From: Octopus sinensis
Taxonomy: Eukaryota
Length of the DNA: 64,000 nucleotides
Direction: 5' to 3'
NCBI RefSeq assembly: GCF_006345805.1
Contig: NC_043004.1
Coordinates: forward strand, 16,430,001 to 16,494,000
The notes under the pieces were generated by a model. That model did no database searches, was not told the DNA's origin, and worked only from the letters and a program-made list of their open reading frames with translations. Below are positions 5,003 through 63,512 of the stretch, piece after piece; the first letter of the stretch is position 1, and every line of letters begins with the position of its first letter. The translations under genes were made by a program, and so were the position numbers.

Positions 5003-5331
5003 CTCTTTACTCTTTACTCTTTTACTTGTTTCAGTCATTTGACTGTGGTCATGCTGGAGCACTACTTTTCGTCGAGCAAATCGATCTCAGGACTTATTCT
5101 TTGTAAGCCTAGTACTTATTCTATTGGTCTCTTTTGCCGAATCGCTAAGTTACGGGGATCTAGACACACCAGCATCGGTTGTCAATGTTGGGGGGGGGGC
5201 TAACTCATACACACAAACACACGCATATATATATACATATATACGACGGGCTTCTTTCCGTTTCTGTCAACCAAATCCGCTCACAAGGTTTTGGTCAGCC
5301 CGAGGCTATAGTAGAAAACACTTGCCAAGGT
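5003..5331 (-). mobile_element. tRNA-derived SINE (family A), 5'-truncated, with internal microsatellite
   Basis: Shares its head-proximal part with 30063-30229 and its 3' part (..CCAGCATG.CC.CAGTCAAATGACTGAAACAAGTAAAAGAG) with 25960-26130, 56265-56625 and 59240-59445. Confidence 0.8.
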
Positions 5332-25654: not shown

Positions 25655-25800
25655 TGTATTAGCTTAACGCTTGGGAAGTGAGAAAGTCATTTACGTTTCG
25701 AGCCTACTCTCTTCGATAGAAAGGAACACAGAAATAAACAAGGAGAGAAAATAGAAAAAGCTTTAGTGGCTAGCGATCAATCATAGTGAATGCCGACAGA
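25655..25800 (-). mobile_element. Pseudo-LTR-like fragment with degenerate HHR-like motif
   Basis: Minus strand CTATCGAAGAG-AGTAGG-CTC-GAAACGTAAA; related to motifs at ~34890-34920 (+) and ~54930-54960 (-). Confidence 0.45.
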
Positions 25801-44434: not shown

Positions 44435-45340
44435 ATACAATATGTTACATTACTCGGTAGTCAAGATAAAACTCTGAGTTTCAGATGCCGAAGTGGAAAT
44501 CCACAACACCATCTCTTCGGTTATCTGGCTATTTGAAAACGTTATGAAAAAATACCGTTAAAAATGAAGGGAAATTACTCTGTTATAACTCTGCTTTGCC
44601 TGCGTACTTATACATCGCTCGCATTTTTCGTCATAAAAATTATATAAAAATACATAAAAATATATAAAAATATATAAAATCTTCTTGGGACATAACACAG
44701 AAAGCATGTTCTATCCGTTTTCTTTAGGGGACCAAAAACGTAACAGAAATTTAGTCACATGTGGGCATGATCCGAAAAGCTCTGTCCTTGTATTTAGACA
44801 TGTGGTAGGGTCTAAGCTGCTTTTCCAGATAAGCCATCTCTCCATGTCGCATAAACCGCACCTTCCGCTGCCGTTAGTATAGGGCTTACATCTGGCCAAA
44901 ATCTTCCATTGTATGTTATAATCGACACCTTTATCTCTTAAAGACCAAATATGATTGGATAATTGTGTCGCTTTTCTTTTGTTCCAGTGCCTAAAGCTCA
45001 AAGTGTGGTTATTGAACCTGGCCTTGAAATTACCCTCTGTCAGGCCCACGTATTTCTTCGTCGAAACGGTGTCTTTAGTGGTTATAGAGTTTACGGTAGC
45101 TTCATATATGATGGTCTTGGACATGCAAGCTCCATTTAGCGGGCACAATTCTTTATTCCTGCATGAACAGCTGTTTTCTTCTTGTGTTTTTTGTATGTTA
45201 TGATTGATTATGTTTTTAAAATTGGTAGTTGAACTAAAACTAATTTTTAAATTGTGTCTATTAAAGAGTTTCCTATAAGCATGGTTAACTGGAAAATGTC
45301 TATCTATCAGTGCTAGGAAATATTTACCTATATTGAAGGC

Positions 45341-45454: not shown

Positions 45455-47570
45455 TATAATAAAAGAAGGAAAATGCATGGATGTGTTACTTATCTGTTTA
45501 TGTAGTGAGGTTCTCCGTCTTAGGGTCGTACGTGTCTGTCCAATATAGTTATGTCCAAAGTGTGAGGAGGGTATAACTTAAATCAGATTCTCGGAACCAC
45601 AAGTGAAGTTGATTTCAATTGTGAACCTCTCTCCTTGCTTGTAAACTATAAAGAACATAAAAGAATGAAAGATCCTGCAACCTCTATTCTTCTACATGGA
45701 AACGGCCTGACAGTAAAATAAATAGATTATATCACGAATTTTATATGCAAAAACTTGACTTTTTTACGGCGTACCTAAAATACACAAAAGCAAGAGAGTA
45801 AACGAAGCCTGCAAACAATCACCAGGCAAATACATAAATATCAAAGCGCAAGAAGACTTAAAGTTAAGACCCACTGAAACTGGCCGAGCCTGTGAAACTC
45901 ACTGCCTAAGCAATTTTGAAGACATTCTACTGAAACCCTTGCTGAAATACATCAAAAGATGATCTAGACATGCTTGAGCACCTACCAAAAACAACTAATG
46001 AAGTGATATTATTGGTTTCCTTTGATCTTAGTAGTCTTTACATCAACATCTCACATGTCTATTGAATGGAAGTAATAAAACTCTGGTTGGAAAGTATCCC
46101 GAAGTATTTTCTGAACGCATAAAGTAGGTTTTTATCATTGAAGCTTTCAAATGTATACTTCAGAACAATTATTTCCTATTTGATGGCACCTCCTGTGGTT
46201 AAAAATCCGGAATTGCGATGGGAACGAAATTAGCCCCTGTTCTTGCGAACCTAATGATGGGATATTTTGAAATCACCCTATATGAAGTATCTCAGCAAAA
46301 ATATGGATAAACGTTCACCCTTTATATAATTGAGAACTGGGACAGTTGCCTGGCACATCACTTTATCAATTGGAATGAGTCCATTGTTAAACGTTTGGAA
46401 TTTAAATCAATAAAATAAACCCTAACTTTGGATTTACAATGGAATATATCATAGAACAACTCGATTTTTGAGTATTAGGATAAAAAAAGTCAAGAACCAA
46501 ATTGTAACTGACATTTAACCAACTGACTTGAAGCAATATCTCCTTTTACCTCATACCACCCGAAAGACATCAAAAGAATTGTCCCCTTTAATGTATCAGA
46601 TTTGCAGAATAGAGACTGGTAGACATACTCGGGACCTTCACCACAACACTAAATGAAAGATAACGTCCACCCTCATTTATAGACGATGGAATTAAGCGTA
46701 CCAAGAAATTAGGCAGTAAAACATCAAGAGCAACAAAACATAACACCACACCTCATCTGAAAATACTATCATATATCAACTCATAACTCTAGGAACAAAG
46801 AGGCATGCAACACTATTGTCCAATATTTTAAAATGCTTGCCAGAAAACCAAAAATGAACAACATTCTGAAAATACCTCGATTCACCAAACAGAAAATGCA
46901 ATACAAATCGCTGAAGCCAATGGTTCAACCAGGTGGACGCCCAAACTTGGAATATGCCCCAACCTACTGGAAGGCTCGGAATTCCTATTCAAACAAGGAA
47001 AGAGCTTTCAATTAAAACCAACTTGACATGTGCTTCCGAGAATCTAATTTATGTCATAACTTTGAAAGGTTATGGATATAGCTATATAGGACAGACGAGT
47101 ATGACACTAGGACGGAGAACCACACTATATAAGTAACAGATCCGGTTCCCGCAATACAGATTCATTTAGAGAGATGTGCAGGTAATATCCAACCAAAATA
47201 CACACTTTTCTCCATCTACCAGATAAAAAATTTCTATACAAGAGCTTTCAAGTAAAGAAAATTTGTTCATTGAAAAATAAAGAACATATATAAATATGAA
47301 AGCATAACCAACTTTGGTCTCAGTACGTATATTAAATCCTGATCACATACCCTTCACTGTATATAGATCATCTCACTACTTTAGCTTTTAAATTTTTATG
47401 TATCTCCAAAAGATGAGAAATTCCCACCCCTGTCCCTAATAATAACGATCATCAATTACGTCCCCTTAGATGGTAAACCTTTCATTCACAAACTCCACAA
47501 ACAACATACGAAATTGCAATAAGTTCATGATTAGCGAAAGCGAAACCTGTCGCCAAGCACATTTTCCTTC

Positions 47571-47575
<5 letters not shown>
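45455..47575 (+). mobile_element. Decayed Neptune-type Penelope-like element (RT + GIY-YIG) with short inverted end
   Basis: FYGVPKIHK, LKLRP, LVSFDLSSLYINI, GIAMGTKLAPVLANLMMGYFE, LTCASENLIYVITL...YIGQT; many stops. Ends GAAGGAAAATG / CATTTTCCTTC lie next to (TA)n. Confidence 0.85.
47527..47551 (+). ncRNA. HHR-like motif at the 3' end of the Neptune-type PLE
   Basis: ATGATTA-GC(GAAA)GC-GAAA-C-CT-GTC; stem I is not evident. Confidence 0.4.
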
Positions 47576-47619
<44 letters not shown>

Positions 47620-47690
47620 CATATTGCATTACAACACACAGACACATACACACACATATATAGGTATATTTATATATGTATATGTATGTG

Positions 47691-47737
<47 letters not shown>

Positions 47738-48450
47738 CAGCAAAAATACTCTGAATTTCTTGACATTCTTCTAAATGGTATTTGAATCGACTTGTCATAC
47801 ATAAAAAGTTAACTTCATTGTAAATTCTACATTTATTGGTGTCTGATTGTTTGATAGTGTTAACCAAGTTCGTCTACAACTGAGTGCCTAATTGTTGTCT
47901 GCCTGGAGTTTTAATGCCTTTATAGCATCTAATATACATATAGACACAAGCACATACATACATGCATACATACATAGATTCATACATACATACTGTACCC
48001 AATAAAAGATGAGGACTATTGATAAAGAGTGTCTAAATCAACAACACACGATACACTGCCAGCTTCATAATCGTTGTTGAAGCAACACAGTATATACAAA
48101 TCCGCCTGGAGCAAAATGTGTGTGAAGTTGTGTCCTCGGGGAAGGAGAACACAAATCCTTTATTCTTATTCATAACAAATGATCAAGATATCTGGGACTA
48201 TAAATATCTGCAAGGATAATGGTTAAAAGAAAATGCTTTCCTTCACAACTATACTACTGAGTAGGTGACCGGTCAAAATTTATTCTAAATTAAAAATAGA
48301 AAGAAAATACAGATAGATATATTCATTCATACGTACATATGTGTGTGTGTGTGTGTATAGATGCTTGTATATACATTCATATATATATAGTCATATATTT
48401 TTTCATATAAATGTGTGTATATATATATATAGATGCGTGTATATACATTC

Positions 48451-48523
<73 letters not shown>

Positions 48524-48930
48524 CATACAACACAAACACACGCACATTTATGTATGTATTATGCATGTATGAGTGTCTTTTAATATGACTGCAGGCTAAT
48601 TAACGCCCATTGTATCATTCGTACGTTATAAACAAATGTTTAACAGTAAAATGCAAAAAATTCAGGTTCACAGATTATTTGCGGAATTATTTAAGTGAGA
48701 GCATAAAAGTTTTTTAACGAGAAATTCGATCAGTAGGATATTATATATATATAATAAATATTAGGGAATGAATCCAAAATTACAGGGAAAAATCAGATTT
48801 AGGGTTAAATCCAATTTTATAGTAAAATATTATATAATTATTATATAATATAATATTATATTATATTATATTATATAAAATATTATATTATATAATTGTT
48901 TGGTTTTAAAATAGTGGTTTTGTCTCGAAT

Positions 48931-49006
<76 letters not shown>

Positions 49007-50318
49007 ATAATTCTGATGTATGGTTAAATAATCCCTATCAAGATATAAGAGAGATCACTAAACATGTACACACCCTAATACATCCGTGTTGAAATTCACT
49101 TTAAAATCACAAAAGAATTAAAAGTAAAGTTAATTTCGTTTGTTTTTTGCATTATGATTGGAATTTACTACTAAAGGATTAAACAACTAGGTTCTCAGAG
49201 ATTAAACACCACGTTCTCGTGTATTCTACAATTTTTGATGCTGAATTTAGCTATGAATAGGGTCCGACATTCATTTCTTCTAAGATTTTAACTAGCCCAA
49301 GTGGAAGCTTCAATATGGTCGCTCACTTTCCAACCTTAGAAATGGTGGATCACCTTGAATAAATAGCTTTATTCAGAAAATCTTTCATCAAAGGTCAGCT
49401 CATTCCTGGATTGATCGTGGCTCAAAACAACAAAAACAACAAATAAGAGTTCTAGCTGGGTTGTTAGTGAGTTTCTATACCATACTACGACTTGTTAGAA
49501 TTAGCAGCCAACTATTATATATGTCACAATGTTATCTCTAAAAGTAATGGTATGCAAGAAAAAGCGGTCATGCAAACATTTCAAGATCGATGGTTACAGC
49601 TACAATTCCGATCAAAACTTGAAAAATGGATACAAATAAACAAACAGTTCAACACTAAAATCAATACCAACGGTGGAAAACTGTCTAATGTAATGTCTCC
49701 GAAAAATATTGCAGCCATTATGGAACGACACATTTGGAACACGGCAGCACAAAACTCATACAAATCACACAGAAGAACAAACCCACACAAACACACACAC
49801 ACACATACATACACACACACATACACACATACGTACGCACGTACATGCACAGATATTCAGATGTTGGCTCAGTGTCCAGTTATAAGTATCACAATGGACA
49901 ACACACACAGACACGTAAATAATGCAAATATCACTACAAGAGATACAAAAATCCCACAGTTAATTCTCTTATATACGAAGCAACCAATTACCAGCGCATC
50001 TATATATCTCATCAAGCTACTTACGACAATTTCTTCCAGAAATCAATTTCTCACACATTCAAATATTCACACACTTGCACATACCTAGCTCTCAATCGGG
50101 TTAACCATTCAGGTTAATGCATTCAATTACTAATCAGACCATTACCCTTTATCATTAGGTTCTCTGTACAACAATGCTTGGTAGCTGCAACATCCAAACT
50201 ACCATCGACGTAAACAGTACGCTTCACTGCATTCTATTAATGACTTATACAAAAAATATCTCAACCCGACATTTAGAATCAATAGAAAATACTGGCTAGC
50301 TAGCAAACTACAATTCAG

Positions 50319-50360
<42 letters not shown>

Positions 50361-50369
50361 ATATATATA

Positions 50370-50437
<68 letters not shown>

Positions 50438-51282
50438 AGAAGACCATTTTAAGAATTTCCCAAATGGATTATTCCAACAAGACCGCATTATGGAATGTTT
50501 TCCGACAGGATTATCACAATACTACTTGATTTACCTAGATTATTATTTAAATAATATCTCGTATAAACATTCAGGCAAACCCCGTACGAATACGACATCA
50601 ACATCCAATCCCCTCAACATCATCTTAATATAACTCCACAATTGTTTTCACGTCAAGAATCTCCAAAATATGTTGGCTCTAGATCATCAGATATAATGTA
50701 GCACTAACGAATCTCCTGTCTCCCTCTTTATCAGCAACTATGGAGAAGAACGAATATAATGAAACTGCATAAACAAAGATATCAATGTACGACGGACAAA
50801 ATATTTAATTGCGAAGTACCTAACACAACATTTCTACAGCAACGCCAGTACACGTCAATAACGGAGTAAAGAGGACAAGATCACACAAAAGATATATAAT
50901 TTCTCACCGGTACAATATTTCATCAACAGAAAGATACCATGACTTATGCAAGCTCAGTTTTAAATCCCAATGTAATCGTGCTAATCGCTAATGAAAACAA
51001 GCAATATATTTCACCATATCGCATGTATTACATATTCTTCACCCATAAGCCATTAGTTCAACGAAACAAAATGCAAAAAAAGAAATCATATGGACACGCG
51101 CTAAGCCATTACATGTATAATTAGTATGAAGATTTATTTTCAACGTTTCAAAGCTCAACTACCATACCATTATGAAAAACGGTTATATATTTTAGTTGGT
51201 ACAGGTAACACATAGTAATACGTAGACGCAAATGAAGTGATAGCATCAGCTGGATTATTAATCCTATACACTATATATTGTT

Positions 51283-51588
51283 TGCACCCTTTTCAAGCCT
51301 AGCCAGGCTCATGGGCCCAGTTTCTCGGTTTCTGTGGCGTATGTATTCCCCACCAGCTGGTCGGGACGCCAGTCCATCGCAGTGTTACTCAAGAAACAGG
51401 AAGAAAGAGTGAGAGAAAGTTGAAGCGAAAGAGTACAACAGGGGTCGCCAATACCCCCTGCCGAAGCTCCGTGGAGCTTTTAGGTGTTTTCGCTCAATAA
51501 ACACACACAACGCCCGGTCTGGGAATCTAAACCGCGATCCTCCGACCGTCAGCCCGCTGCCCTAAACATTGGGCCATTGCGCCTCCAC
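51283..51588 (-). mobile_element. tRNA-derived SINE, body type B with tail type 2
   Basis: Head GTGGAGGCGCAATGGCCCAATG; TSD ATACACTATRTAT at 51266-51278 / 51589-51601; same family as 55712-56031. Confidence 0.9.
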
Positions 51589-53169
51589 ATACACTATGTA
51601 TATGTACCAATAATAAAGTGCGTTGGTACATCACATGTACCAAGTGCACAGAGTGCGCCTCTCCTGTAGGAGTAGTCAGAATGTACAGGTGTAATGAGAC
51701 ATAAAGTAGACAGATTATATGTCCAGACTTTAACACGGTTTTCCATAAATTTAACTATTACAAGTTAGAGTACGATCCTCCTTTCAATAGACATATGGCG
51801 TTGCTGCATATAAAACTACAATTATGGACAACGGTGGAACTGTTTCAGTTTGAATACAACCTCTCAGATCCAGTTATTCGTCAAAACAATTACAGCTCTG
51901 AAATTATTCATATTCTTAATTGAATATCACTGATGATATCATTTCATATATTAATTGATTCATTACCCTTTCGTTCAACATTACTACTGACTATCACATT
52001 TCATATATAAACTTATCAAGTTAACAGATGTACTATTATATATAAAGGACAGTCGACGCTATTAAATATATATATATTTAATTTATATATTAAATATATA
52101 ATTAAGTAATTTGAGCGTAAGATATACTCTAAGAACTTCAACGATTATTAAATATAACAATTCGTGTACCGTTACGATATTAGCAGATATATAATGTATG
52201 TTCACAAATGATAAAATAGTATGAACAGAAATAACTACGAAGCAACAGGATATTACCACATAACATGATCTTTACTATAATTCATAATAACAAACGCATT
52301 GCACAAGAAGTTACAATATTCTGGGTAAAATATAATGTTAACAAATTTAATATATCCAGTACATGATGGTGTCTGACACTATAAGCCAAGATATAATACA
52401 CAACAACTTTTGTTTTAAATATTTTTTGTTGATTCGATTATTAAAGTTGCGTGAAGGCTTGTTCCTGTTGATCAGCTAATGAGAACAATCTTTACAGAAT
52501 TTCCATTTGAATTAATGAAGGTATTCATGCAAACGTTTGGTTTTTAAATCAGAATAAAACATATGTCTCGAAACTAAATAAGTGTTATTATGCTGTCAAC
52601 ACACGTCGACACAATATCAATAATATCATTTGAAAGTCAAATAAAAGAAGCTGCAAACAGTTGATTGAATGTAGTCAACTTTTCCTTGCGTTGTCTTCAA
52701 GATGTGTTGTCAATAGAAAAAGAAAAAAAGACAAGCATTCATACTGTTCTTGCAATAGACGTTATTAACTGTACTACTCTGATATTATATAAACATAACT
52801 TTAATAATACACCCAGATTTTTTTGCAAACAAATTTGCTTTGGGGAATGATTACAGATTTTGTGAGTAGCTACTATTATATATGACTAAAAATATATGAA
52901 GCAATAGTAACCTGAAGTATCAAACTAAAAGCAACCTACTAGTGTTTGCTTTAAATTCAAATCAATAATGTTTTCCCTTCAGATTTCTAGACAAATATCA
53001 ATGTCTAGCGACGATTCTATTGTGCAGATTCTTGAGTATCAATAATACCTACCTTGGTTGGAAAATCTCAGTTGCAATACTTTCTGTTTATTCTGGTGTA
53101 AAAATACACCACATTTGACGACGTGTCACCTAATGAAATTTAAATAAAGCTTTGTAGTAGTTAATAGAT

Positions 53170-53515
53170 GTAGAGGTGCGTGGCCTAGTGGTTAGGGTGT
53201 TGAACTCATGATCGTAAGGTTGGGATTTCGATTCCTGGACCGGGTGATGTGTTGTGTTCTTGAGCCAAATACTTCATTTCACGTTACTCCAGTCCACTCA
53301 GCTGCCAAAAATGAGTAACGCTGCGATGGACTGGCGCCCCGTCCAGCTGGGGAACACATACGCCATTGAAACTGGGAAACCGCTCTTATGAGCCTGGCAT
53401 CGCTCGAAAAGGAACATTTATTATTTGTGGAGGCGCGTGACTTCGTGGTTAGGGTGTCAGCATCAGGATCATAAGATTGTGGCTAGGTTTTAAAAGGGCG
53501 CATTTATTTATTATC
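53170..53515 (+). mobile_element. Dimeric tRNA-derived SINE, CORE-like body with tail type 2
   Basis: A-box TGGCCTAGTGG, B-box TTCGATTCC; a second head starts at ~53426. One TSD TAGTAGYTAATAGAT at 53155-53169 / 53516-53530. Confidence 0.88.
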
Positions 53516-54294
53516 TAGTAGCTAATAGATAGTCTTCCCAGTAATGTGTTAGACAAAAGAAGAAAGTGTTGCGACAGTGTTAGTAATTCTCAATTGATAT
53601 TGTGCGTAAACATAAATTTGTTACCAGGTCAAATACGTTTGTGGCATATTCGAACTCGTAAGACAGATGTTCACTGTATTTGCCCCACGACAAAATTCAG
53701 TGAATGGCGTCCTTGTGAGTTCAAATATGCATCAAGGGCATTTGAACTGGGAATTAAGTTTGTACGTATACACATCACTGATTAGTGATTTAATTACTGC
53801 TTAAACAATATCACATATTTATTATGCATAATATTTCAGTCTTAATTATAAATAAGTTATTATGCATTAAAATTCATATATAAAATAAGGAGAATGAAGT
53901 ATTTCAACATTCAAACTTTATATTATTTTAAATAAAGAGAAAGTTTGAAACAAATACAAAGTTTGAAGTTGAAATTGTCCATTCTCCTTATTATCAATAC
54001 TGTACTTTACACTCTAAGTTGCCAACTCGGATCGGAGTCAAAGGAAATTTACCATAAAACGCATTGTCTGAAAGAACCAGTTTGCCATTTTACATAGAGA
54101 AATTCGATATTTGCGTGGATATTATATACCTCCACTTACTATATATATATATGCGCGCGTGTGTGTGTGTGTGCGTGTGAGTGTGTGTATGTATGTAGAT
54201 ATATATATATATATAATAACATGAGGGAATATTATTCCAAACTTACAGGGAAAAATTCAACTTAGAAATACTAAATCAAATTTCACAAAATATA

Positions 54295-54341
<47 letters not shown>

Positions 54342-54701
54342 TTAGAGATATGATATTAATCTTATATTTAATCTTTCTATAAGTTGTAATTTTTCTAAAT
54401 AGTATAATTCAATTTTTTCATTATTGAATTGATAAAATGTGGTTTCTAATTGATATATATATATATATATATTATGAGATAACAAAACCGAGGCTATGAG
54501 GGGTTTTCAGGACATTTATAAGGAACAACAAAGCATTGGCTTTGTTGTCTCACTTTGATTAATATATATTACAAGAGTAAACAAGACAGACAGAGACAGA
54601 CAGAAACAAGGATAATGCCATTTGCATTTGAATACTATACAAATATTCTTTAAAAAAAAAACTTTTATCTTAACATTTCTAAATTTAATTGTTTAATTGT
54701 T

Positions 54702-54739
54702 ACAGTTGAAAAAGTCTCAATGACTGAAACCGGTACTAA
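54702..54739 (+). ncRNA. Variant minimal HHR-like motif (U3-A8) in a (TA)n-flanked repeat
   Basis: AG-TTGAAAA-AGTC(TCAAT)GACT-GAAA-C-CG-GTA-CT; related copies in both arms of 61402-61662. Confidence 0.55.
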
Positions 54740-54849
54740 AAGGTTTTTTATAAAATTATTTTAGTATTTTCTATTTTGACATTTTTTCCATATACTTCAA
54801 CTCGTGTGTTCCTTTTCATCTTTCTACATATATATATTTACAAATGATT

Positions 54850-55030
54850 TAAATGTACAAGGTACAAAGACACGTGAGGGAACAACAAGTAGGTGAATTA
54901 GCCAGACGCTCAAGAAGAATTGGAAACCCTATGACATTTCGAGCATACGCTCTTCGACGGCAAAGTATGAGAGGAAAACGATGGAGAGAGACGCAAACCA
55001 GAGAGAAAAAAAATGTGTCGGAATTAACGG

Positions 55031-55031
<1 letters not shown>
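54850..55031 (-). mobile_element. Pseudo-LTR-like fragment with degenerate HHR-like motif
   Basis: Minus strand CCGTCGA-AGAGC-GTAT-GCTC-GAAATGTC; ends in (TA)n. Confidence 0.45.
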
Positions 55032-55076
<45 letters not shown>

Positions 55077-55711
55077 TCACTTACAAAGTTCTATTCAATG
55101 AATATCAAAGTGTTACATATGATGTTTCATGTAGAACATAAATGTTAGCTTTCTTTTCATTCGTTTTATAGATTCTGAATTGTTTAACATCATCTTCATT
55201 TTCGTCGTCGTCGTCATAATCCCCGTCATAGTGTCGCCGCTGTTATTATTGATGTTGCTGTCAATGTCCTTGTTTTTGATTTTCTATAATTATTTTATTT
55301 CATTTACTATTCCCCACCTAGCCTAAGAACTCTTTCAAAAAAAAAAATGATTAGATTCTTCGTCTTTAAAAAAAATATCTTATTTTCGAATTATTTTCTC
55401 CTTTCGTTACAAGGTGAGAGGTTGATTTCAATGTGTCATCTAAACACTATTCAGATATTTACTTTGTCTTTCACAAAACAATGTCTAACATACTGGCGTT
55501 TATTTTACCGGATATTGATGATTAATCACTCTTAACTATATTAAAAATATAAACATTCTAATGAGTGGGATTGAATTAAATTTCTCTATTTTTATGAAAA
55601 TGGGAAATAATCTAAATACCAAAACCGAGAAGTTTGTGTATGTGATGGGCTTCGATATCAGTTATAATCGTTATATTAACACAAAAATTACTAATTGTCA
55701 TACTTATATCA

Positions 55712-56031
55712 GTGGAGGCGCAATGGTCCAGTGCTTAGGGCAGTGGACTCGCGATCGGAGGATCGCGGTTTCGATTTCTAGACCGGGCGTTGTGTTTGTT
55801 TATTAAGCGAAAATACCTAAAGGTCCACGATGCTCCGGCAGAGGGTGATGGTGACCCCTGTTATATCTTTCGCCCCAACTTTCTCTCACTTTTTCTTCCT
55901 ATTTCTTAGGAAACGCTGCGATGGACTGGTGTCCGGTCCAGCTGGTGGGGGGAACACTATGCCACAGAAACCGGGAAACCGGGCCCGTCAGCCTGGCTAG
56001 GCTCGAAAAGGGCGCAAGAGAAGAAGAAGAG
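55712..56031 (+). mobile_element. tRNA-derived SINE, body type B with tail type 2
   Basis: A/B boxes, (GAA)n tail, TSD ATACTTAYATCA at 55700-55711 / 56032-56043. Confidence 0.9.
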
Positions 56032-56264
56032 ATACTTACATCAACCAGCTCAAAAGGATTTCTTTTGATAGAAGGTGCAAAGAATATCATTTCTATACGA
56101 TTCTCAAACATACTACTGTGTAGGAGGCACAGATGTATGAGTATTATTTTAGAGGATTATGATGGAATAGTAGCATATGAAAGAGGAGTTTTGATGTAAA
56201 CTGTTCACGAAACCCTATCAGATTTATACAAGTTATCAAATATATAAAAACTATATAAAAAGTT

Positions 56265-56625
56265 GCAGGTATGGCTATGTGGTAAGAAGGTTGCTTCCAA
56301 AATACAAATTCGTCCCCACGACGTGATACTTGAGCAGATACCTTTTAAAACAGCCTTGGGCCAAGCGAAACTTTGTGGGTAAATTTGATAGACGATAACT
56401 GAAAGGGAGCTGTTGTATGTGTTTTTGTCGTAGTTGCGCAATCGATTGACAACCATTGTCGGTTTGTTTACATCCCTGTAATTAAGCACTTCTGCAGAAA
56501 ATAACCATGGGATATAATCGACTTCAAAACAAGTACTGGGATCGACTTGTTCAAGTAAAACTCTTTAACGTGGTGCCCTAATATGGTGGCAGTTCAATGA
56601 CTGAAAGACGTAGAAAGTAAAAGAA
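56265..56625 (+). mobile_element. Diverged full-length SINE family A
   Basis: Head GCAGGTATGGCTATGTGGTAAG and tail ..CAATGACTGAAAG..GTAAAAGA; colinear with the 30063 and 5003 copies. Confidence 0.7.
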
Positions 56626-57660
56626 AAATATATTTTTAAATTACATCCTGTAGTGGACAGACAAACATTTTTACTCACTCCATATCACCTGTCTACTGAA
56701 CAGAAAATAATGTGACCAGTCTAAATTTAGATACAAATATTATTTATACAGCAGATGAATATATGTTTCCTTTAATATTTGATGGCTATGTTTTATGAAA
56801 CGTCTGGAAGTTGTTGAAATTGCCACATCATAAGTTATCTCGTTCAATAATTAATTAGACAATTGCATGGAATGTAGTTTTCTATGTCTGTAGAACATGT
56901 CCTAAAGTAAAAAAAGATGCTTCATTCTCAACCACGATGTTCCGGTTTCGATTCATCTGTGTGGTATATTCAACGAATTTGGATTTCTCTAGCATAGATT
57001 TGATTGTAAAGGAAATTGCATTGACAATAACTGTATAAAAAGCCCGCCGATTGCTGGAACATGCAAGTCTAAGGTTCAGGTATGTTATCTCGTTCTATGT
57101 GGCAATAACCTGAATAATACATTAATACTTAGCCTATTACTTGATGATTTAATGAGCCTGTTAATTTAGGTGATTGAGCAACTGAATACTCCTGATTAGA
57201 ATTTGTGCCCATGATAATTTCAATCCTACCCTTGATAATACTTACTGTGAGAGTTGTATTATTTATGGACTCTCAGTACATGTCGCTGGTGTGGCTTTAA
57301 TTTAATCTTAATCTGTTCATATTTTTCATATTCGTGTGTTTCGTTCGTTTACTTTTTAAAGAGATTGCTACTTGCGATGACTGAGAAATAAAGTGAAACC
57401 TTTTGATGTATGCATGCTATTGGGTTTTATAGACTTTTTCTCTCGCTTCTTAAAACTAAAACCTTGAGAGTTACATCGAAACCGTCACAGCAGTCGCTGT
57501 GGTTAACAAGTTCGATTTGCAACCTCGCGTTTTCGGGTTCAGTTAACTATGTATTACTTTGAGATACTGTCTTCTGGTATAGACACCTGGCTAACCAATG
57601 CCTTGTGAATGAACTTGGCAGACAGATTACGAGTCAAAGCCTGTCCTATATACATGTATA

Positions 57661-57698
<38 letters not shown>

Positions 57699-57716
57699 CA
57701 TTTATGATTATAGTAT

Positions 57717-57830
57717 TCTACGCTGAAGAGAAAAGAAGTTTCGGTAAGATAGAATTATTTATTATTTAATATTTAATATCTAATTCTTATGCTTTCCTTA
57801 AAACTTGATTTCGAAACGTACGTCCGTGGA
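57717..57830 (+). ncRNA. Type-I minimal hammerhead ribozyme with canonical core
   Basis: Stem I TCTACG/CGTGGA; CTGAAGA at 57723-57729; long stem II (GAAA..AAGTT..AGAATTA / TAATTCT..AACTT..TTTC); GAAA at 57813-57816; C-GTAC-G; GTC triplet with predicted cut after 57824. Confidence 0.8.
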
Positions 57831-58016
57831 TAACTAAAAAAATGTATGATAGATTGCAGTCAATTCATTCTCTCTTACCTGTTTGTGTCTGCCTTCCAAA
57901 TGCTGTTTTTACTGAGATCTCCCTTTTTAGTAGAAGAAATAGCTATAACCCTTTGACTGCTATTTCTAAATTCGGTATGTGGTAAGGCAACTCGTTGCTA
58001 AACCCTTATTGCTTAG

Positions 58017-58094
<78 letters not shown>

Positions 58095-58127
58095 ATATGT
58101 ATATATATATATATATAATATATATAT

Positions 58128-58178
<51 letters not shown>

Positions 58179-58187
<9 letters not shown>

Positions 58188-58405
58188 ATATGTTACAATT
58201 ATACAATAGTCAAGATAAAACTCTGAGTTTCGGATGCCGAAGTGGCAATCCACAACACCATCTCTTCGGTTATCTGGCCATCTCTTTTTTTTATCATTGG
58301 AGATAGCCAGATAACCGAAGAGATGGTGTTGTGGATTGCCACTTCGGCATCCGAAACTCAGAGTTTTTTCTTGACTATTATATAATTGTAACATATTATT
58401 TTATA
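58179..58405. mobile_element. Palindromic dimer of the pseudo-LTR of the PLE at 44435-45342
   Basis: ~106 bp arms 58179-58284 / 58300-58405 with few mismatches. Each arm carries AGATAA-CCGAAGA-GATG..CATC-C-GAAAC-TCAGA-GTT-TTWTCT. Confidence 0.85.
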
Positions 58406-58407
58406 GA

Positions 58408-58797
58408 GGAGGCGCAATGGCCCAGTGGTTAGGGCAGCGGGCTCGCGGTCGTAGGAACGCGGTTTCGATTCCCAGACCGGGCGTTGTGAGTGTTTATTGA
58501 GCGAAAACACCTAAAGCTCCACGAGGCTCCGGCAGGGATGGTGGTGATCTCTGCTGTACTCTTTCACCACAACTTTCTCTCACTCTTACTTCCTGTTTCT
58601 GTTGTACCTGTATTTCAAAGGGCCGGTCTTGTCACTCTCTGTGTCACGCTGAATATCCCCGAGAACTACGTTAAGGGTACACGTGTCTGTGGAGTGCTCA
58701 GTCACTTACACGTTAATTTCACGAGCAGGCTGTTCCGTTGATCGGATCAACCGGAACCCTCGTCGTCGTAACCGATGGAGTGCTTCCATTCCATTCC
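58408..58797 (+). mobile_element. Full-length tRNA-derived SINE, body type B with tail type 1
   Basis: A-box TGGCCCAGTGG, B-box GGTTTCGATTCCC, (TTCCA)n tail, perfect TSD ATTTTATAGA at 58398-58407 / 58798-58807. Confidence 0.92.
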
Positions 58798-59239
58798 ATT
58801 TTATAGATAAATTTCCTCTATTTACATAATATTGAGATTTTCTTTCTTTCTATTGTTATCTTACCGTTTTTACCAATATATAACTATATACATATATAAG
58901 AGGGATGACCACTATGAACATCCATTGTGCTAGAGGTAGATCCCATATGGTCTGACCACTATGAAAAGATTATTCTCAAGAAAATTCAGCAAGTGCCAGA
59001 ACGTAAACGAGCAAGACAAATGGAAACATACAAAATATAAAGATTAATCACAAACCCGCTTTCATTGTTACCACCCACGTAATACTTATGTAAATGTCCG
59101 CAATTTATCAGAGTGATCGTCCTAGCAAAATATAATTTGCAGAACCATACACGAGACGTCCGCATTATATATCTTTCTATTATAGATAGATAGATGTGTG
59201 TGTGTATATATATATATTTGTGTGTGTATGTGTCTTTAT

Positions 59240-59445
59240 GTTTTCCCCTTCCACCTTTTAGCAACTGTTGTTGACTTATCTACATCCCTGTAACATACAG
59301 GTAGCGGTTCGGTAAATGTGATCGATAGAAGAGGCCAGGATTACAAAAGATAACTATTGGGATCGATTTCTCTATCAAAACCCCTCCAAGGCTGTACCCC
59401 ATCATGGCCGTTTTCTAATGACTGAAACATGTAAAAGTTGAAAGA
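59240..59445 (+). mobile_element. SINE family A, 3' half, diverged
   Basis: TACATCCCTGTAAC..AGCGGTTCGG..GGATCGATTT..CATGGCCG..AATGACTGAAACATGTAAAAG. Confidence 0.65.
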
Positions 59446-60499
59446 AGATTAAACCGTGATGTGACTTGTATCTTCAAAGTAACCAAATAACGTATATATT
59501 AGTTCATTGTACAGTCTCGCTGTAAGTGAATTAAAATACCGACAGGAAATAAATTAAATTCACACATATAGAATGAGGCAAAGACAATTAGTTTTGTTTT
59601 GTTCAGTACCGTAATAGCGATTGGAAAATATTTTTGTACATCACTGTAACTGTAAAACAAACAACTCTATTTAGAAGAATTTATCAAAATACAATTTTGA
59701 AGAAAACATTCAGAACTTCAGAAATAGTGAAACATTTTATGTTTTGTTATTTTGTGGGCAAATAAAAGTGATGTTTTTACATCGGAACAAAAGAACGTCT
59801 GTCCTCCATGATACTGAAATATAAAGTAGGAATAAATGTGTATTTGTTTATATATGCGTGTATGTGTCAGTGTGTGTGTGAGAGAGGGAGAGAGTGTGTG
59901 TGTCTATGTGTGTGTGTAATAGCGTGTAGTATGTTTTGCTTAAAACACAGACTAATCACGTCTGCGCTATTTGTGTTAAAATATTTTCGTTATTAGTCTT
60001 CCCATTATTGTTATTTATTTATTATTGCTTTTATTTTTGTATACGACACTGTAGATCGATAAAGTAATTAACACAAACATATCTCTAATAATTATATTGA
60101 AATAACCACAATCCGGTAAAAAAATATTGTTGTATTTACATAAAAAATTATTTTATTACTAAATATAAAATATCACACTTAAAAGATATTTGCTTCGTTC
60201 TCATCTTCCATGTCGGTCTCTAACATTTGAAGTTTTATGTATGAATGTGTGTTCGTGTGAATGTGTATTTGTGTGCGCGTCATTGAGTGTGTGTGTTTGT
60301 GTGTGCTACTGGTGTGTGCCTATATGCTTGGATATTCCTAAAATTAAATCAGCAATCACAATCACAAACATATATTGTTCGTCCTCAAGTATTTCTCCTG
60401 TTGTGTTTACTGTTACAGTTATGCTCTATGTGATATAGAAGACCTCTCTATTTAGAACTGCTTGGCATATCACGAAGCTATGTTCAATGCCGCTTCCGA

Positions 60500-61170
60500 A
60501 CATAGGTAGCTTTGAAGATGTTCGCTCTGATGCAAAAATCCGAAATAATTATCCTCAGAATGTTAACCTGTCCTCAAGGCGCATTGATTCTCGTTTCATT
60601 TCGGTAGAGATCACAGCAGGTAAATGCTGCTGAATAATATATTCTTGCATTTAGATATATATTTGACTCCACACATAACATATGTGGCTAGTACATTAGA
60701 CACATATGCTATCGCTATCTCTGACACAAAAGCGCCACCCATTTCTACACGGTTCATTTCTGTCAAACAGCTTACATTTTATACTGATGACCTATTCAAA
60801 AATGTGACACCCGTACGTTTCAACCGCCTATTTTGTCATTTTTTAAACATATCTGGACTTAAATGGGAAAGACTTCGAAATAATCTGGCCTAAATTTTTC
60901 CACGCACTGACAACTAACTGCATCGTCTTCTCCTACGGTTCTTAGAGCTGCAACCATATACAAATCTTCTATTTGCAACATTTACAGATGCAGTGCGCTT
61001 TCATTTATATCTACATGCATTCTTCACAGAAAAAAATACTCGAAAGAGACCTGGCATCTTTTTCAGACATCCAGAAGCACCGTCCACCAAAGAAACCGAG
61101 CATATCGAGTGGTCCGACCAATGTGTTTATGAAGTAACCTTCCTTATATATCTTTATGTGCAATCCCCTG
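60500..61170 (+). mobile_element. Very decayed RTE-like LINE fragment
   Basis: Scattered motifs YVAS (YLGS), ERLR..W, FSYGS*S (LLYGSES), RFHL, IEWSD (LRWSG) appear in the expected order; weak. Confidence 0.3.
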
Positions 61171-61180
61171 CTTCTAAGTA

Positions 61181-61360
61181 TCTGCAACCTGTTTCGAAAG
61201 CTGTTTGTCAAAAACAGGTTTTGTGATACACACACTATACCGCTAAGCATATTTACGGACTTAGTTCATTATTGCTCAAGGGTAGTAAATATGCTTAGCG
61301 GTATAGTGTTTGTATCACAAAACCTGTTTTTGACAAACAGCTCTCGAAACAGGTTGCAGA
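61181..61360. repeat. Near-perfect palindrome: 76 bp arms, 28 bp spacer
   Basis: 61181-61256 vs 61285-61360, two mismatches by eye. Confidence 0.9.
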
Positions 61361-61401
61361 AAATAAGACAGGTAGTCTAAAAGTATAAAAGACAGGTTGT
61401 A

Positions 61402-61662
61402 CGGAAAATAAGACAAGGTAGTATAAAATGCTAAAATGTTATCAAGGTGTACATTTCGTAACGGTTTATACCGGTTTATGCCTTTTTTTACTTTTTCAAC
61501 TAAGTGTAGCCGTAATAGCGGCTGTCCGTGAAATCTACTTTAATACCCACATTTTTTTAACCTTAGTTGCAAAAGTCAAAAAGACTGAAGCCAGTAATAA
61601 ACGTTTCAAAATGTATTTCATGATAAAATTGTTTTAGCATTTTTTACCTTGTCTTATTTTCC
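61402..61662. mobile_element. Older fold-back dimer of the repeat family seen at 54700-54795
   Basis: GGAAAATAAGACAAGGTA..AAAATGCTAAAA / TTTTAGCATTTT..TACCTTGTCTTATTTTCC. The inner arms carry TTAGTTGMAAAAGT..-type HHR-like motifs. Confidence 0.65.
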
Positions 61663-63512
61663 TTATACATATCAACATATGTGTCACTTTTCAATATTCT
61701 AACTATCTATCTATCTATTGATCGATCTAACTATCTATCTATCTATATCCATGTGTGTGTGTGTGTGTGTGTACATACATAATACATGCATACATACACT
61801 TGTGCACATATATGCTTGCATACGTACAGATTTTTCATTGTAGTTGAAATAAGAGCATATTTTGTAATAAACCAACGCGTATCATTGGCCGCATAATCAT
61901 GTGATAAATGTACATAATAACTTTTCAAATACACAGACGCTGTAATCGTTAGTTGCTGACTCGCATAAAATTCTCTTTTTCTTTTTCTTTTTCTTTTTAC
62001 GTTGAAGCAATTAATCAAAAATAATTTTTATTGCCACATACTGACATGAATTTATTCCGTTCAAACGTGTCTAGTCAAATGATTTTGAACTCATATCGTT
62101 ATGTTATACATCACATAAGATAACGATTCAACAGCTAAAATATAGCTCTCCAATATTATTGATTCGTTTTAAATAATAGATGTTCTATCTTGAACAAGTT
62201 AGGTTAGCAGTGAAAGAAACACGTTCCTTCCTACTAGACTATAGACATCAAAAGGCAACGACTTGGCAAAATGATGACCATTAATTTCATGTCTGACTTA
62301 TCTCCTCACCAGCCAGAAATATTATTCCAATCAGTATTATACATTCAACAATAATTACGTTTGAAGACGATCCTTTATTTGATGGAGAGAAGCCAATAAA
62401 TCGGTCTGCGCGAGACATAACATCGTGTCATTTCATACAGCTTTGTTCCTAATAAGCAAACATCTTCACAGAATCGACCACATTTGCCATATCTTAATAT
62501 TTTTATTTGACCTACTAAAATGCTCTCCTAATTTCGTAATCAAAGCTATTTTCTACTGAAGTGTCCATCACGAATACCATATCAAATATCGTATTTTATT
62601 TCCGCTCTCTACCAGTCTATATTTATATTTCTGTCTCTTTCGCCACTTTATTTTATCCTTCTGCTTATGTCTAACACACTCATTTTTCCTTTCTTTCTCT
62701 CCCTCCCCTCTCTCTCTCTCTCTCTTTATATATATATAATGTGTGAATGCATACACATACATAAATACAGATGCATATCTGTGAGTGTGCATATGTGTGC
62801 GCGAGTATGCGTGTGTGTGCTTGTGTGTGTGCGTGTGCGTTTATGCATGTTTGTGTGTATGTACATATGAGATTGTAATTTGTTTAAAAAATAGCGGAAT
62901 ATATAGAATATATAACAGACTTCTTTCCCTCTTATATTCACACTTCGGTAGCGTTAAGACGACAAGAGAGAACGACTTCGGTTATAAATTATATGAACTA
63001 TTTTACGCAAAGTGTGAGAACAAATCGTTTCATTCCTACTGCGTCTATAGAAGGCAGAATTGCTGTTAGACAACTAAAACCATAGCAGCGCTTTTGCGTT
63101 TCCAACATGAGTGGTAATGAAAATCTAGGGGTGTATAATTTGAGAAGAAAGGGCTCTGCTTAGTGATTAGTGCTGCATTTGGGAGTTTGGAGAATATAAG
63201 AATAAGTTTCGAAAGGATGAGTGGTGGGTGTATGATTTCAAGTAGCTCGGAAGAGCAGAGCCATTATAGTTATGATAGAATGGACAACGAGACGAATGGG
63301 CTCTCTATGAGACGAAAACTATCTCTATGTGTGTGAATGTAATATAATATGACATTAAGGATTCATCGGTTAGACTGTTACAGAATGCGGTCTAAGATGA
63401 TTAAGTACACAACAGAAACGTTCCAAGTGACCAAACAATAATACAATTTACACCACACCAGATATTTATATTGTTCCAAGAATCGTTGGCAAAAGGTACA
63501 TACTCTTGCCTG

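What the first reader, a model, noticed from the sequence alone, without database searches (positions are those of the whole stretch)
47527..61600. Apparent covariation of the hammerhead 3-8 tertiary pair across families (C-G, U-A, A-U)
Established: the active HHR needs a Watson-Crick pair between core positions 3 and 8, usually C3-G8, and U3-A8 occurs naturally. Seen: CTGAAGA (57723), TTGAAAA (54706, repeated on the minus arm near 61495) and ATGATTA (47527). Each is followed by a stem II hairpin, then GAAAC (TAAAC in the decayed 61495 copy) and GUH. Double changes that keep the pair suggest selection for catalysis. The A3-U8 case is a single decayed copy without a clear stem I, so it may be chance.
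Basis: partly seen in the sequence, partly recalled or inferred. Interest (0 to 1): 0.7.

Follow-up and report, generated by a model that had tools for sequence, protein, structure and literature searches.

The report
Hammerhead core pair swaps in retrotransposons
Small hammerhead-type RNA motifs in this animal genome's Penelope-like jumping genes use all four Watson-Crick versions of one core base pair in different families, which likely reflects selection to keep a self-cutting fold, although cutting is untested and one young lineage carries a U-G wobble instead.

Summary
All named sites are copies of genome-wide repeat families carrying minimal type I hammerhead motifs. Family majorities: 57723 family C3-G8 (64 of 64 counts), 54706 family U3-A8 (22 of 24), 61495/61567 family U3-A8 (27 of 32), 47527 family A3-U8 (25 of 30) with an intact stem I. 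So the A3-U8 case is not chance; only this copy has decayed. It ends a 2-kb broken Neptune-type Penelope-like element. The fourth pair, G3-C8, is also a family consensus (31 of 36, search blind to both positions), and one lineage holds both A-U and G-C with few intermediates. A descriptor blind to positions 3 and 8 gave 88 Watson-Crick pairs in the first 100 hits. An endonuclease tree needs at least three double switches. Limits: a young U3-G8 wobble lineage amplified well, an abundant family has U at position 6, and no cleavage was measured. Natural U3-A8 is published; natural A3-U8 or G3-C8 families were not found in my searches, but four key papers were not held. Verdict: new variant of a known kind, a ready-made natural allelic series.

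The parts
45497..45646 (-). Short inverted piece of the linker/endonuclease region at the 5' end of the element (5' inversion typical of Penelope-like elements)
   Evidence: tblastn with relative-derived fragments, 64% and 59% identity on the minus strand
45650..47575 (+). 5'-truncated, decayed Neptune-type Penelope-like element: RT about 46149-46439, thumb 46465-46692, linker 46667-47017, GIY-YIG endonuclease about 46940-47250, 3' repeat ending at a (TA)n tract; many stops and frameshifts
   Evidence: relatives' fragments hit RVT_1 (E 3e-4) and GIY-YIG (E 2e-3), both below Pfam cut-off; Atlas best hits 0.96, GIY-YIG on 18-40% of members
47523..47555 (+). Minimal hammerhead motif, A3-U8 core (A3 47527, U8 47532, C17 47551); this copy has lost stem I and the stem III palindrome
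   Evidence: family A-U in 25 of 30 distinct copies (window copy included), stem I GTC/GAC
54571..54790 (+). 3' stub of a Neptune-type family (2471 first-look candidates, best copies 87-91% identical)
   Evidence: endonuclease and RT upstream of the motif in L012 and L020
54703..54738 (+). Minimal hammerhead motif, U3-A8 core (U3 54706, A8 54711, A17 54735); stem I 2 bp here, 3 bp in the family
   Evidence: U-A in 22 of 24 distinct copies
57690..58019 (+). 330-bp piece of a young 607-bp unit found elsewhere in head-to-tail and inverted arrays (retrozyme-like, no long ORF)
   Evidence: 99.4% identity to array units, longest stop-free frame 58 aa; no PLE protein similarity in its loci
57717..57830 (+). 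Hammerhead motif, C3-G8 core (C3 57723, G8 57728, C17 57824), 6-bp stem I, long stem II insert
   Evidence: C-G in 64 of 64 counts over 19 loci, some of which overlap
57744..57801 (+). 58-nt intron-like stretch inside stem II (GT donor-like start; ends in AG in 3 of 19 loci, AA in the window and 15 other loci); splicing not shown
   Evidence: no joint skipping it in four contig sets
61400..61504 (-). Minus arm of an inverted pair; decayed U3-A8 motif at 61499-61469 (G12 changed, stem II broken)
61540..61690 (+). Plus arm of the inverted pair; decayed U3-A8 motif at 61567-61596 (A6 and A14 changed); sister family of 54706
   Evidence: U-A in 27 of 32 distinct copies; endonuclease upstream in L100 and L107

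Best explanation
These are minimal type I hammerhead motifs in the terminal repeats of Penelope-like retroelement families whose 3-8 core pair has switched among C-G, U-A, A-U and G-C between lineages, likely because active ancestors were selected to keep the cleavage-competent fold. Shown: the motifs, their families, their place behind RT and GIY-YIG coding sequence, and the paired switches. Inferred: two motifs on a tandem or inverted transcript would pair through the palindrome (ACCGGU or ACGUACGU) to form stem III; the 3-8 pair would position the 2'-OH of residue 8 as general acid, so geometry rather than base identity would matter; cutting after position 17 would define the RNA end. The window copies at 47527, 61499 and 61567 are decayed and probably inert.
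For: Blind descriptor, ACCGGT type: 13045 hits against 1383 reversed-pattern control; first 100 hits are U-A 71, A-U 16, G-C 1, C-U 6, U-G 4, U-C 2, 88 Watson-Crick against 58 expected from the margins; the 6 C-U hits are one family, lack stem I and lie in a different repeat. A3-U8 pattern 1390 against 96; G3-C8 119 against 38; C3-G8 135 against 30. G-C in 31 of 36 hits of a flank-anchored pattern blind to 3 and 8. One lineage with the same stem II: A-U 79, G-C 15, G-U 2, A-C 2, A-G 2 in the 100 listed of 137 (U3 and A8 were excluded by the pattern). Endonuclease tree: positions 3 and 8 need the same number of changes (6 on 53 rows; 4 on 40 rows); one clade is rejected for A-U (p-AU 2.7e-5) and U-A (0.0019). 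14 of 16 lineage units Watson-Crick, shuffle mean 4.9, 0 of 200000. Stem I also differs between families while staying paired. Papers: the C3G/G8C swap rescues activity (PMC9901934, PMC8495972, passages); natural U3-A8 (PMC3088659 passages; PMC4209133 parts 1-2 of 4).
Against: No cleavage or processed RNA end was observed here. U3-G8 is the majority in young subfamilies: K3-K8 pattern 244 against 3 control, 84 of 100 listed U-G, copies 96-97.5% identical with an endonuclease upstream and one extra U before position 3. A very abundant C3-G8 family has U instead of A at position 6. In one type III hammerhead only the G-C swap rescued; other double mutants were low (PMC9901934, passage). Metazoan minimal hammerheads cleaved weakly even as dimers (PMC4209133). 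One of the 4 tree changes rests on L192, labelled C-G by family but itself U-G, so only 3 double switches are firm; tree groups were seen before the clade tests; units are related and partly found with Watson-Crick-specific patterns. A single U-A insertion inside a C-G family (L213) shows that decay can mimic covariation in single copies.
Confidence: 0.74

Rival explanations
1. The fold, including the 3-8 pair, is selected, but for something other than fast self-cleavage, such as recognition of the RNA end by the element's reverse transcriptase, ligation, or protein-assisted cutting.
For: Wobble and U6 families amplified to hundreds or thousands of copies; low in vitro activity of metazoan minimal hammerheads (PMC4209133); function stated as unclear (PMC8557442, passage).
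Against: The 3-8 pair forms in the active conformation and was not seen in minimal ground-state structures (PMC3884650, passage); G5, G12-A14, A15.1-U16.1 and H17 are kept with it across families, though these were partly imposed by the search patterns.
Confidence: 0.15
2. The motif is a dispensable passenger; the pair states drifted and the matches reflect few founder events in an AT-rich genome.
For: Few independent switches (3 firm); Naiad elements thrive without canonical hammerheads (PMC8557442, passages); young U-G lineage.
Against: U-A to A-U needs two transversions, and no U-U or A-A family was seen; six tree-level blocks all paired has probability 4 of 720 under shuffling; intermediates are rare within the A-U/G-C lineage.
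Confidence: 0.08
3. The A3-U8 site is a chance look-alike.
For: The window copy has only one stem I pair and no palindrome.
Against: Family majority has stem I, palindrome and A-U; 1390 against 96 control genome-wide; fixed position behind the endonuclease.
Confidence: 0.02

Closest known systems
Minimal hammerheads (min-HHRs) of metazoan Penelope-like elements, including the U3-A8 variant of Schistosoma mansoni Cercyon elements (Cervera and De la Pena 2014, PMC4209133)
   Same: Type I topology, short stem I, palindromic stem III of dimer type, place in the terminal repeat, many solo and opposite-strand copies, U3-A8 families.
   Different: That paper's consensus is CUGANGAH and it names only the U3-A8 swap in the parts and supplement passages I saw; here A3-U8 and G3-C8 are family majorities, C3-G8 is about 1% of the ACCGGT type (135 of 13045), stem II is often only 2-4 bp and the extra nucleotide after A9 is absent in the four named families.
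Natural U3-A8 core variants (Perreault et al. 2011, PMC3088659)
   Same: Compensatory change at positions 3 and 8 in nature.
   Different: Only C-G to U-A is reported in the passages seen; no lineage mapping.
Engineered 3-8 swaps (PMC9901934; PMC8495972; Przybilski and Hammann 2007, recalled, not held)
   Same: G3-C8 restores activity in vitro.
   Different: Laboratory mutants of tertiary-stabilised ribozymes, not natural families of minimal dimeric motifs.
Non-LTR retrozymes (bioRxiv 10.64898/2026.07.22.740005, part 1 of 5 read)
   Same: 57723 family: non-coding tandem units, each with a type I hammerhead.
   Different: 607-bp unit with a 75-nt stem II insert that resembles an intron; no autonomous partner identified.

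Membership tests
Minimal type I hammerheads of Penelope-like elements | Core N3-UGA-N-N8-A ... GAAA ... UH with three helices | tested here: met
   Family majorities; not met by the decayed copies at 47527, 61499, 61567
Minimal type I hammerheads of Penelope-like elements | Watson-Crick pair at 3-8 | tested here: met
   Four window families; not met in the U3-G8 lineage elsewhere in the genome
Minimal type I hammerheads of Penelope-like elements | Palindromic stem III allowing dimers | tested here: met
   ACCGGT in three families, ACGTACGT in the 57723 family
Minimal type I hammerheads of Penelope-like elements | G10.1-C11.1 pair and one extra nucleotide after A9 | tested here: inconclusive
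   G-C present in 47527 and 57723 families; 54706 and 61567 families start stem II with A-U (or an extra A plus an extra U); no unpaired extra nucleotide in the 47527 family
Minimal type I hammerheads of Penelope-like elements | Located in the terminal repeat behind an RT/GIY-YIG frame | tested here: met
   47527 in the window; 54706 and 61567 families via L012, L020, L100, L107; not found for the 57723 family
Minimal type I hammerheads of Penelope-like elements | Self-cleavage after position 17, as dimer | not testable with these tools
   No raw RNA reads available; needs a bench assay
Neptune clade of Penelope-like elements | C-terminal GIY-YIG endonuclease with CX2-5CxxC motif in the RT-EN linker (PMC8557442) | tested here: met
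   CGRPNCGTC-type motif before the GIY-YIG in L040, L049, L051; degraded in the window copy
Neptune clade of Penelope-like elements | RT groups with reference Neptune elements in a tree | not tested
   No reference sequences fetched
Non-LTR retrozymes (57723 family) | Non-coding tandem units each with a type I hammerhead | tested here: met
   607-bp arrays
Non-LTR retrozymes (57723 family) | Circular RNA monomers in vivo | not testable with these tools
   Only contigs of runs guessed to be RNA were available

The most novel reading that the evidence does not exclude
One clade of Neptune-type retroelements has walked the hammerhead's 3-8 tertiary pair through all four Watson-Crick states, with a viable U-G wobble stepping stone caught in young families; the A3-U8 and G3-C8 forms are the first natural, active examples, and the pattern shows that minimal hammerheads are under catalytic selection during retrotransposition.
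Probability: 0.4. Interest if true: 0.7.

Novelty: new variant of a known kind. Interest (0 to 1): 0.55.

Why it matters
Whether the weak minimal hammerheads of animal Penelope-like elements matter to the element is open (PMC4209133, PMC8557442). Repeated compensatory change at a pair that belongs to the active fold is sequence evidence that they do, and sister families differing at just this pair are a natural allelic series for kinetics. It also means descriptors fixed on CUGANGA, or on C-G plus U-A, miss whole families (over a thousand A3-U8 pattern matches in this genome alone).

Tried and rejected
Rfam scan: no hammerhead family matched; minimal motifs fall below the models. C3-U8 'family' in the blind sample: rejected, no stem I, and its flanks read as the antisense of an RT frame of another retroelement type (the CR1-like label is recalled). 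Apparent U3-G8 hits of the ACGT type: a register artefact, they are C3-G8 with U6 and an extra A. MAFFT alignment of family representatives misaligned the cores, so pair counts were done by anchoring in scripts. Spliced-ribozyme idea for 57723: acceptor AG in only 3 of 19 loci, no intron-less junction in fetched loci, no skipping joint in four contig sets; no RNA holder listed, so expression is undecided. A second read lay, on an A3-U8 copy, returned no result, leaving expression of that family unexamined. A3-U8 pattern in viral contigs: 3 matches, none with convincing stems. Literature searches gave no paper naming natural A3-U8 or G3-C8; not held: Przybilski 2007, Lunse 2017, Hammann 2012, Seehafer 2011, Nelson 2008; supplement file 1 of PMC4209133 was not searchable. 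Rows dropped: 11 of 47 before the tree (distance or span), 6 of 59 before (1 foreign motif, 5 low score), 13 more before (long, odd, redundant, outgroup).
Full report
Context. The window lies in a 2.72-Gb, microsatellite-rich animal genome; that it is a cephalopod is my guess from recalled repeat types and comes from no call. Hammerhead numbering and the general mechanism are established knowledge, with the passages cited below.

Observation. All motifs are present. A strict short descriptor finds two Watson-Crick 3-8 hits in the window (47527, 54706) against 0.075 in 40 shuffles. 57723 needs a 75-nt stem II insert and is best read with an 8-nt palindrome and C17 at 57824. The 61495 site is one arm of an inverted pair whose other arm carries a second decayed motif at 61567. 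Rfam finds no hammerhead.

Families. Each site belongs to a repeat family (2471, 250, 1580 and 1439 first-look candidates, 30 loci fetched each). Counting with anchors that exclude positions 3 and 8: 54706 family U-A 22 of 24, 61567 family U-A 27 of 32, 47527 family A-U 25 of 30 (26 of 31 before collapsing duplicates), 57723 family C-G 64 of 64 counts in 19 partly overlapping loci. The 47527 family has stem I GTC/GAC, a 2-bp stem II with a GAAA loop and the palindrome ACCGGT; its copies are old (median 78% identity), share a sharp 3' end and variable 5' truncation. In the window the motif ends a 2-kb broken element with RT, linker and GIY-YIG endonuclease remains and a 5' inversion; relatives show the CX4CxxC linker that PMC8557442 (passages) gives for Neptune. 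Pfam hits are below cut-off; the Atlas supports GIY-YIG. The 54706 and 61567 families also have such frames upstream. The 57723 family is young, non-coding, forms 607-bp tandem and inverted arrays and resembles a retrozyme.

Genome-wide covariation. A pattern blind to 3 and 8 (ACCGGT type) has 13045 hits against 1383 for the reversed control. I fetched all of the first 100 (plus loci): U-A 71, A-U 16, G-C 1, C-U 6, U-G 4, U-C 2, C-G 0. The C-U set is one family without stem I. Pair-specific patterns: A-U 1390 against 96 (a looser stem III), G-C 119 against 38, C-G 135 against 30. G-C is a true majority: 31 of 36 in a flank-anchored blind search. One lineage with a shared stem II and flanks holds A-U 79 and G-C 15 with 6 single-change copies among 100 listed of 137 (counted by eye). 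ACGT-type families (18247 against 3139) are C3-G8 in the homologous register. Clustering 332 motifs from all loci gave 13 clusters of three or more: 11 with a Watson-Crick majority, one U-G, one the C-U non-ribozyme; 84 components were smaller. Shuffling 16 lineage units never reached the observed 14 paired, but the units are related and partly found by pair-specific patterns; six tree-level blocks give 4 of 720.

Phylogeny. Trees of the endonuclease DNA from individual copies interleave U-A, A-U and G-C groups. With family labels on three rows, positions 3 and 8 each need 6 changes on 53 rows (8 pair changes with raw labels) and 4 on 40 rows; A-U and U-A are each rejected as one clade (groups were seen earlier, bootstrap unsettled). 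One change rests on L192, whose family is probably mostly U-G, so three double switches are firm. Direction is not resolved.

Results against. A pattern for G/U at both positions found 244 hits against 3; 84 of 100 listed are U-G, mostly two young subfamilies (96-97.5% identity) nested among U-A families, with one extra U between stem I and position 3. So a wobble core did not prevent amplification: either it is a viable intermediate or the motif is not always needed in cis. An abundant C-G family has U6. L213 is a U-A insertion within a C-G family. Purine-purine and A/C-only combinations were not searched specifically, only through the blind sample.

Mechanism. Shown: anatomy, location, covariation. 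Inferred: dimer formation through the palindrome (duplex about -9 kcal/mol for the 6-mer), as proposed in PMC4209133; the 3-8 pair belongs to the active conformation (PMC3884650, passage) and the 2'-OH of residue 8 is essential (PMC8495972, passage), so base identity can vary if geometry is kept; cutting after position 17 would trim the RNA for retrotransposition. A-to-G steps (U-A to U-G, A-U to G-U) could be helped by RNA editing; untested.

Literature. PMC4209133 (parts 1-2 of 4, supplement passages) and PMC3088659 (passages) report natural U3-A8. PMC9901934 (passages) found the G-C swap the only rescuing double mutant in its ribozyme, which argues that A-U activity is context-dependent; Przybilski and Hammann 2007 is recalled as showing tolerance of all four pairs in some contexts and was not held. 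Other papers seen as passages: PMC8557442, PMC6765202, PMC3884650, PMC8495972, PMC10085705; bioRxiv 10.64898/2026.07.22.740005 part 1 of 5. Nine searches found no natural A3-U8 or G3-C8 family; Lunse 2017, Seehafer 2011 and Hammann 2012 were not held and may hold such cases. Earlier AI notes of this scan mention G3-C8 behind protist Penelope-like RTs, unchecked.

Verdict. Real covariation in a known class of motif; A3-U8 and G3-C8 as natural family consensuses appear unreported in what I could search; catalysis likely but untested. Interest 0.55, new variant of a known kind.

Noticed in passing
L372-L392 (for example L372:1496-1531 minus): Young Neptune-type subfamilies with a U3-G8 wobble core and one extra U between stem I and position 3; about 200 pattern matches genome-wide.
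   Followed up: partly
window 25680-25735 (-) and 54925-54975 (-); L319-L346: Very abundant hammerhead-like family with C3-G8, U at position 6 and an extra A after A9.
   Followed up: partly
window 57744-57801: Intron-like 58-nt stretch within stem II of the 607-bp family; removing it in silico leaves a long stem II, but the acceptor AG is a minority allele and no spliced form was seen.
   Followed up: partly
window 58305-58385 (+), 44455-44535 (-), inverted repeat 58200-58390: Another hammerhead-like motif (CCGAAGA core, long interrupted stem II) in a repeat family; the 44455 copy lies behind a Penelope/Poseidon-like GIY-YIG frame at 44711-45280 (-) (Pfam E 0.008, below cut-off).
   Followed up: no
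window 5010-5070 (-), 56575-56630, 59400-59450: The 3' tail of an abundant SINE-like repeat resembles the stem II to GUA half of the 54706 family motif but lacks the UGANNA strand; shared origin or chance is untested.
   Followed up: no
L288-L316: A second tandem family (about 355-360 bp period) with canonical C3-G8 hammerheads and 6-bp stem I, retrozyme-like.
   Followed up: partly
window 61173-61368: 84-nt inverted repeat, 94% complementary, 28-nt spacer, directly beside the inverted hammerhead pair.
   Followed up: no
L164, L168, L173, L193: U3-A8 family whose stem II is followed by two extra nucleotides before G12.
   Followed up: no
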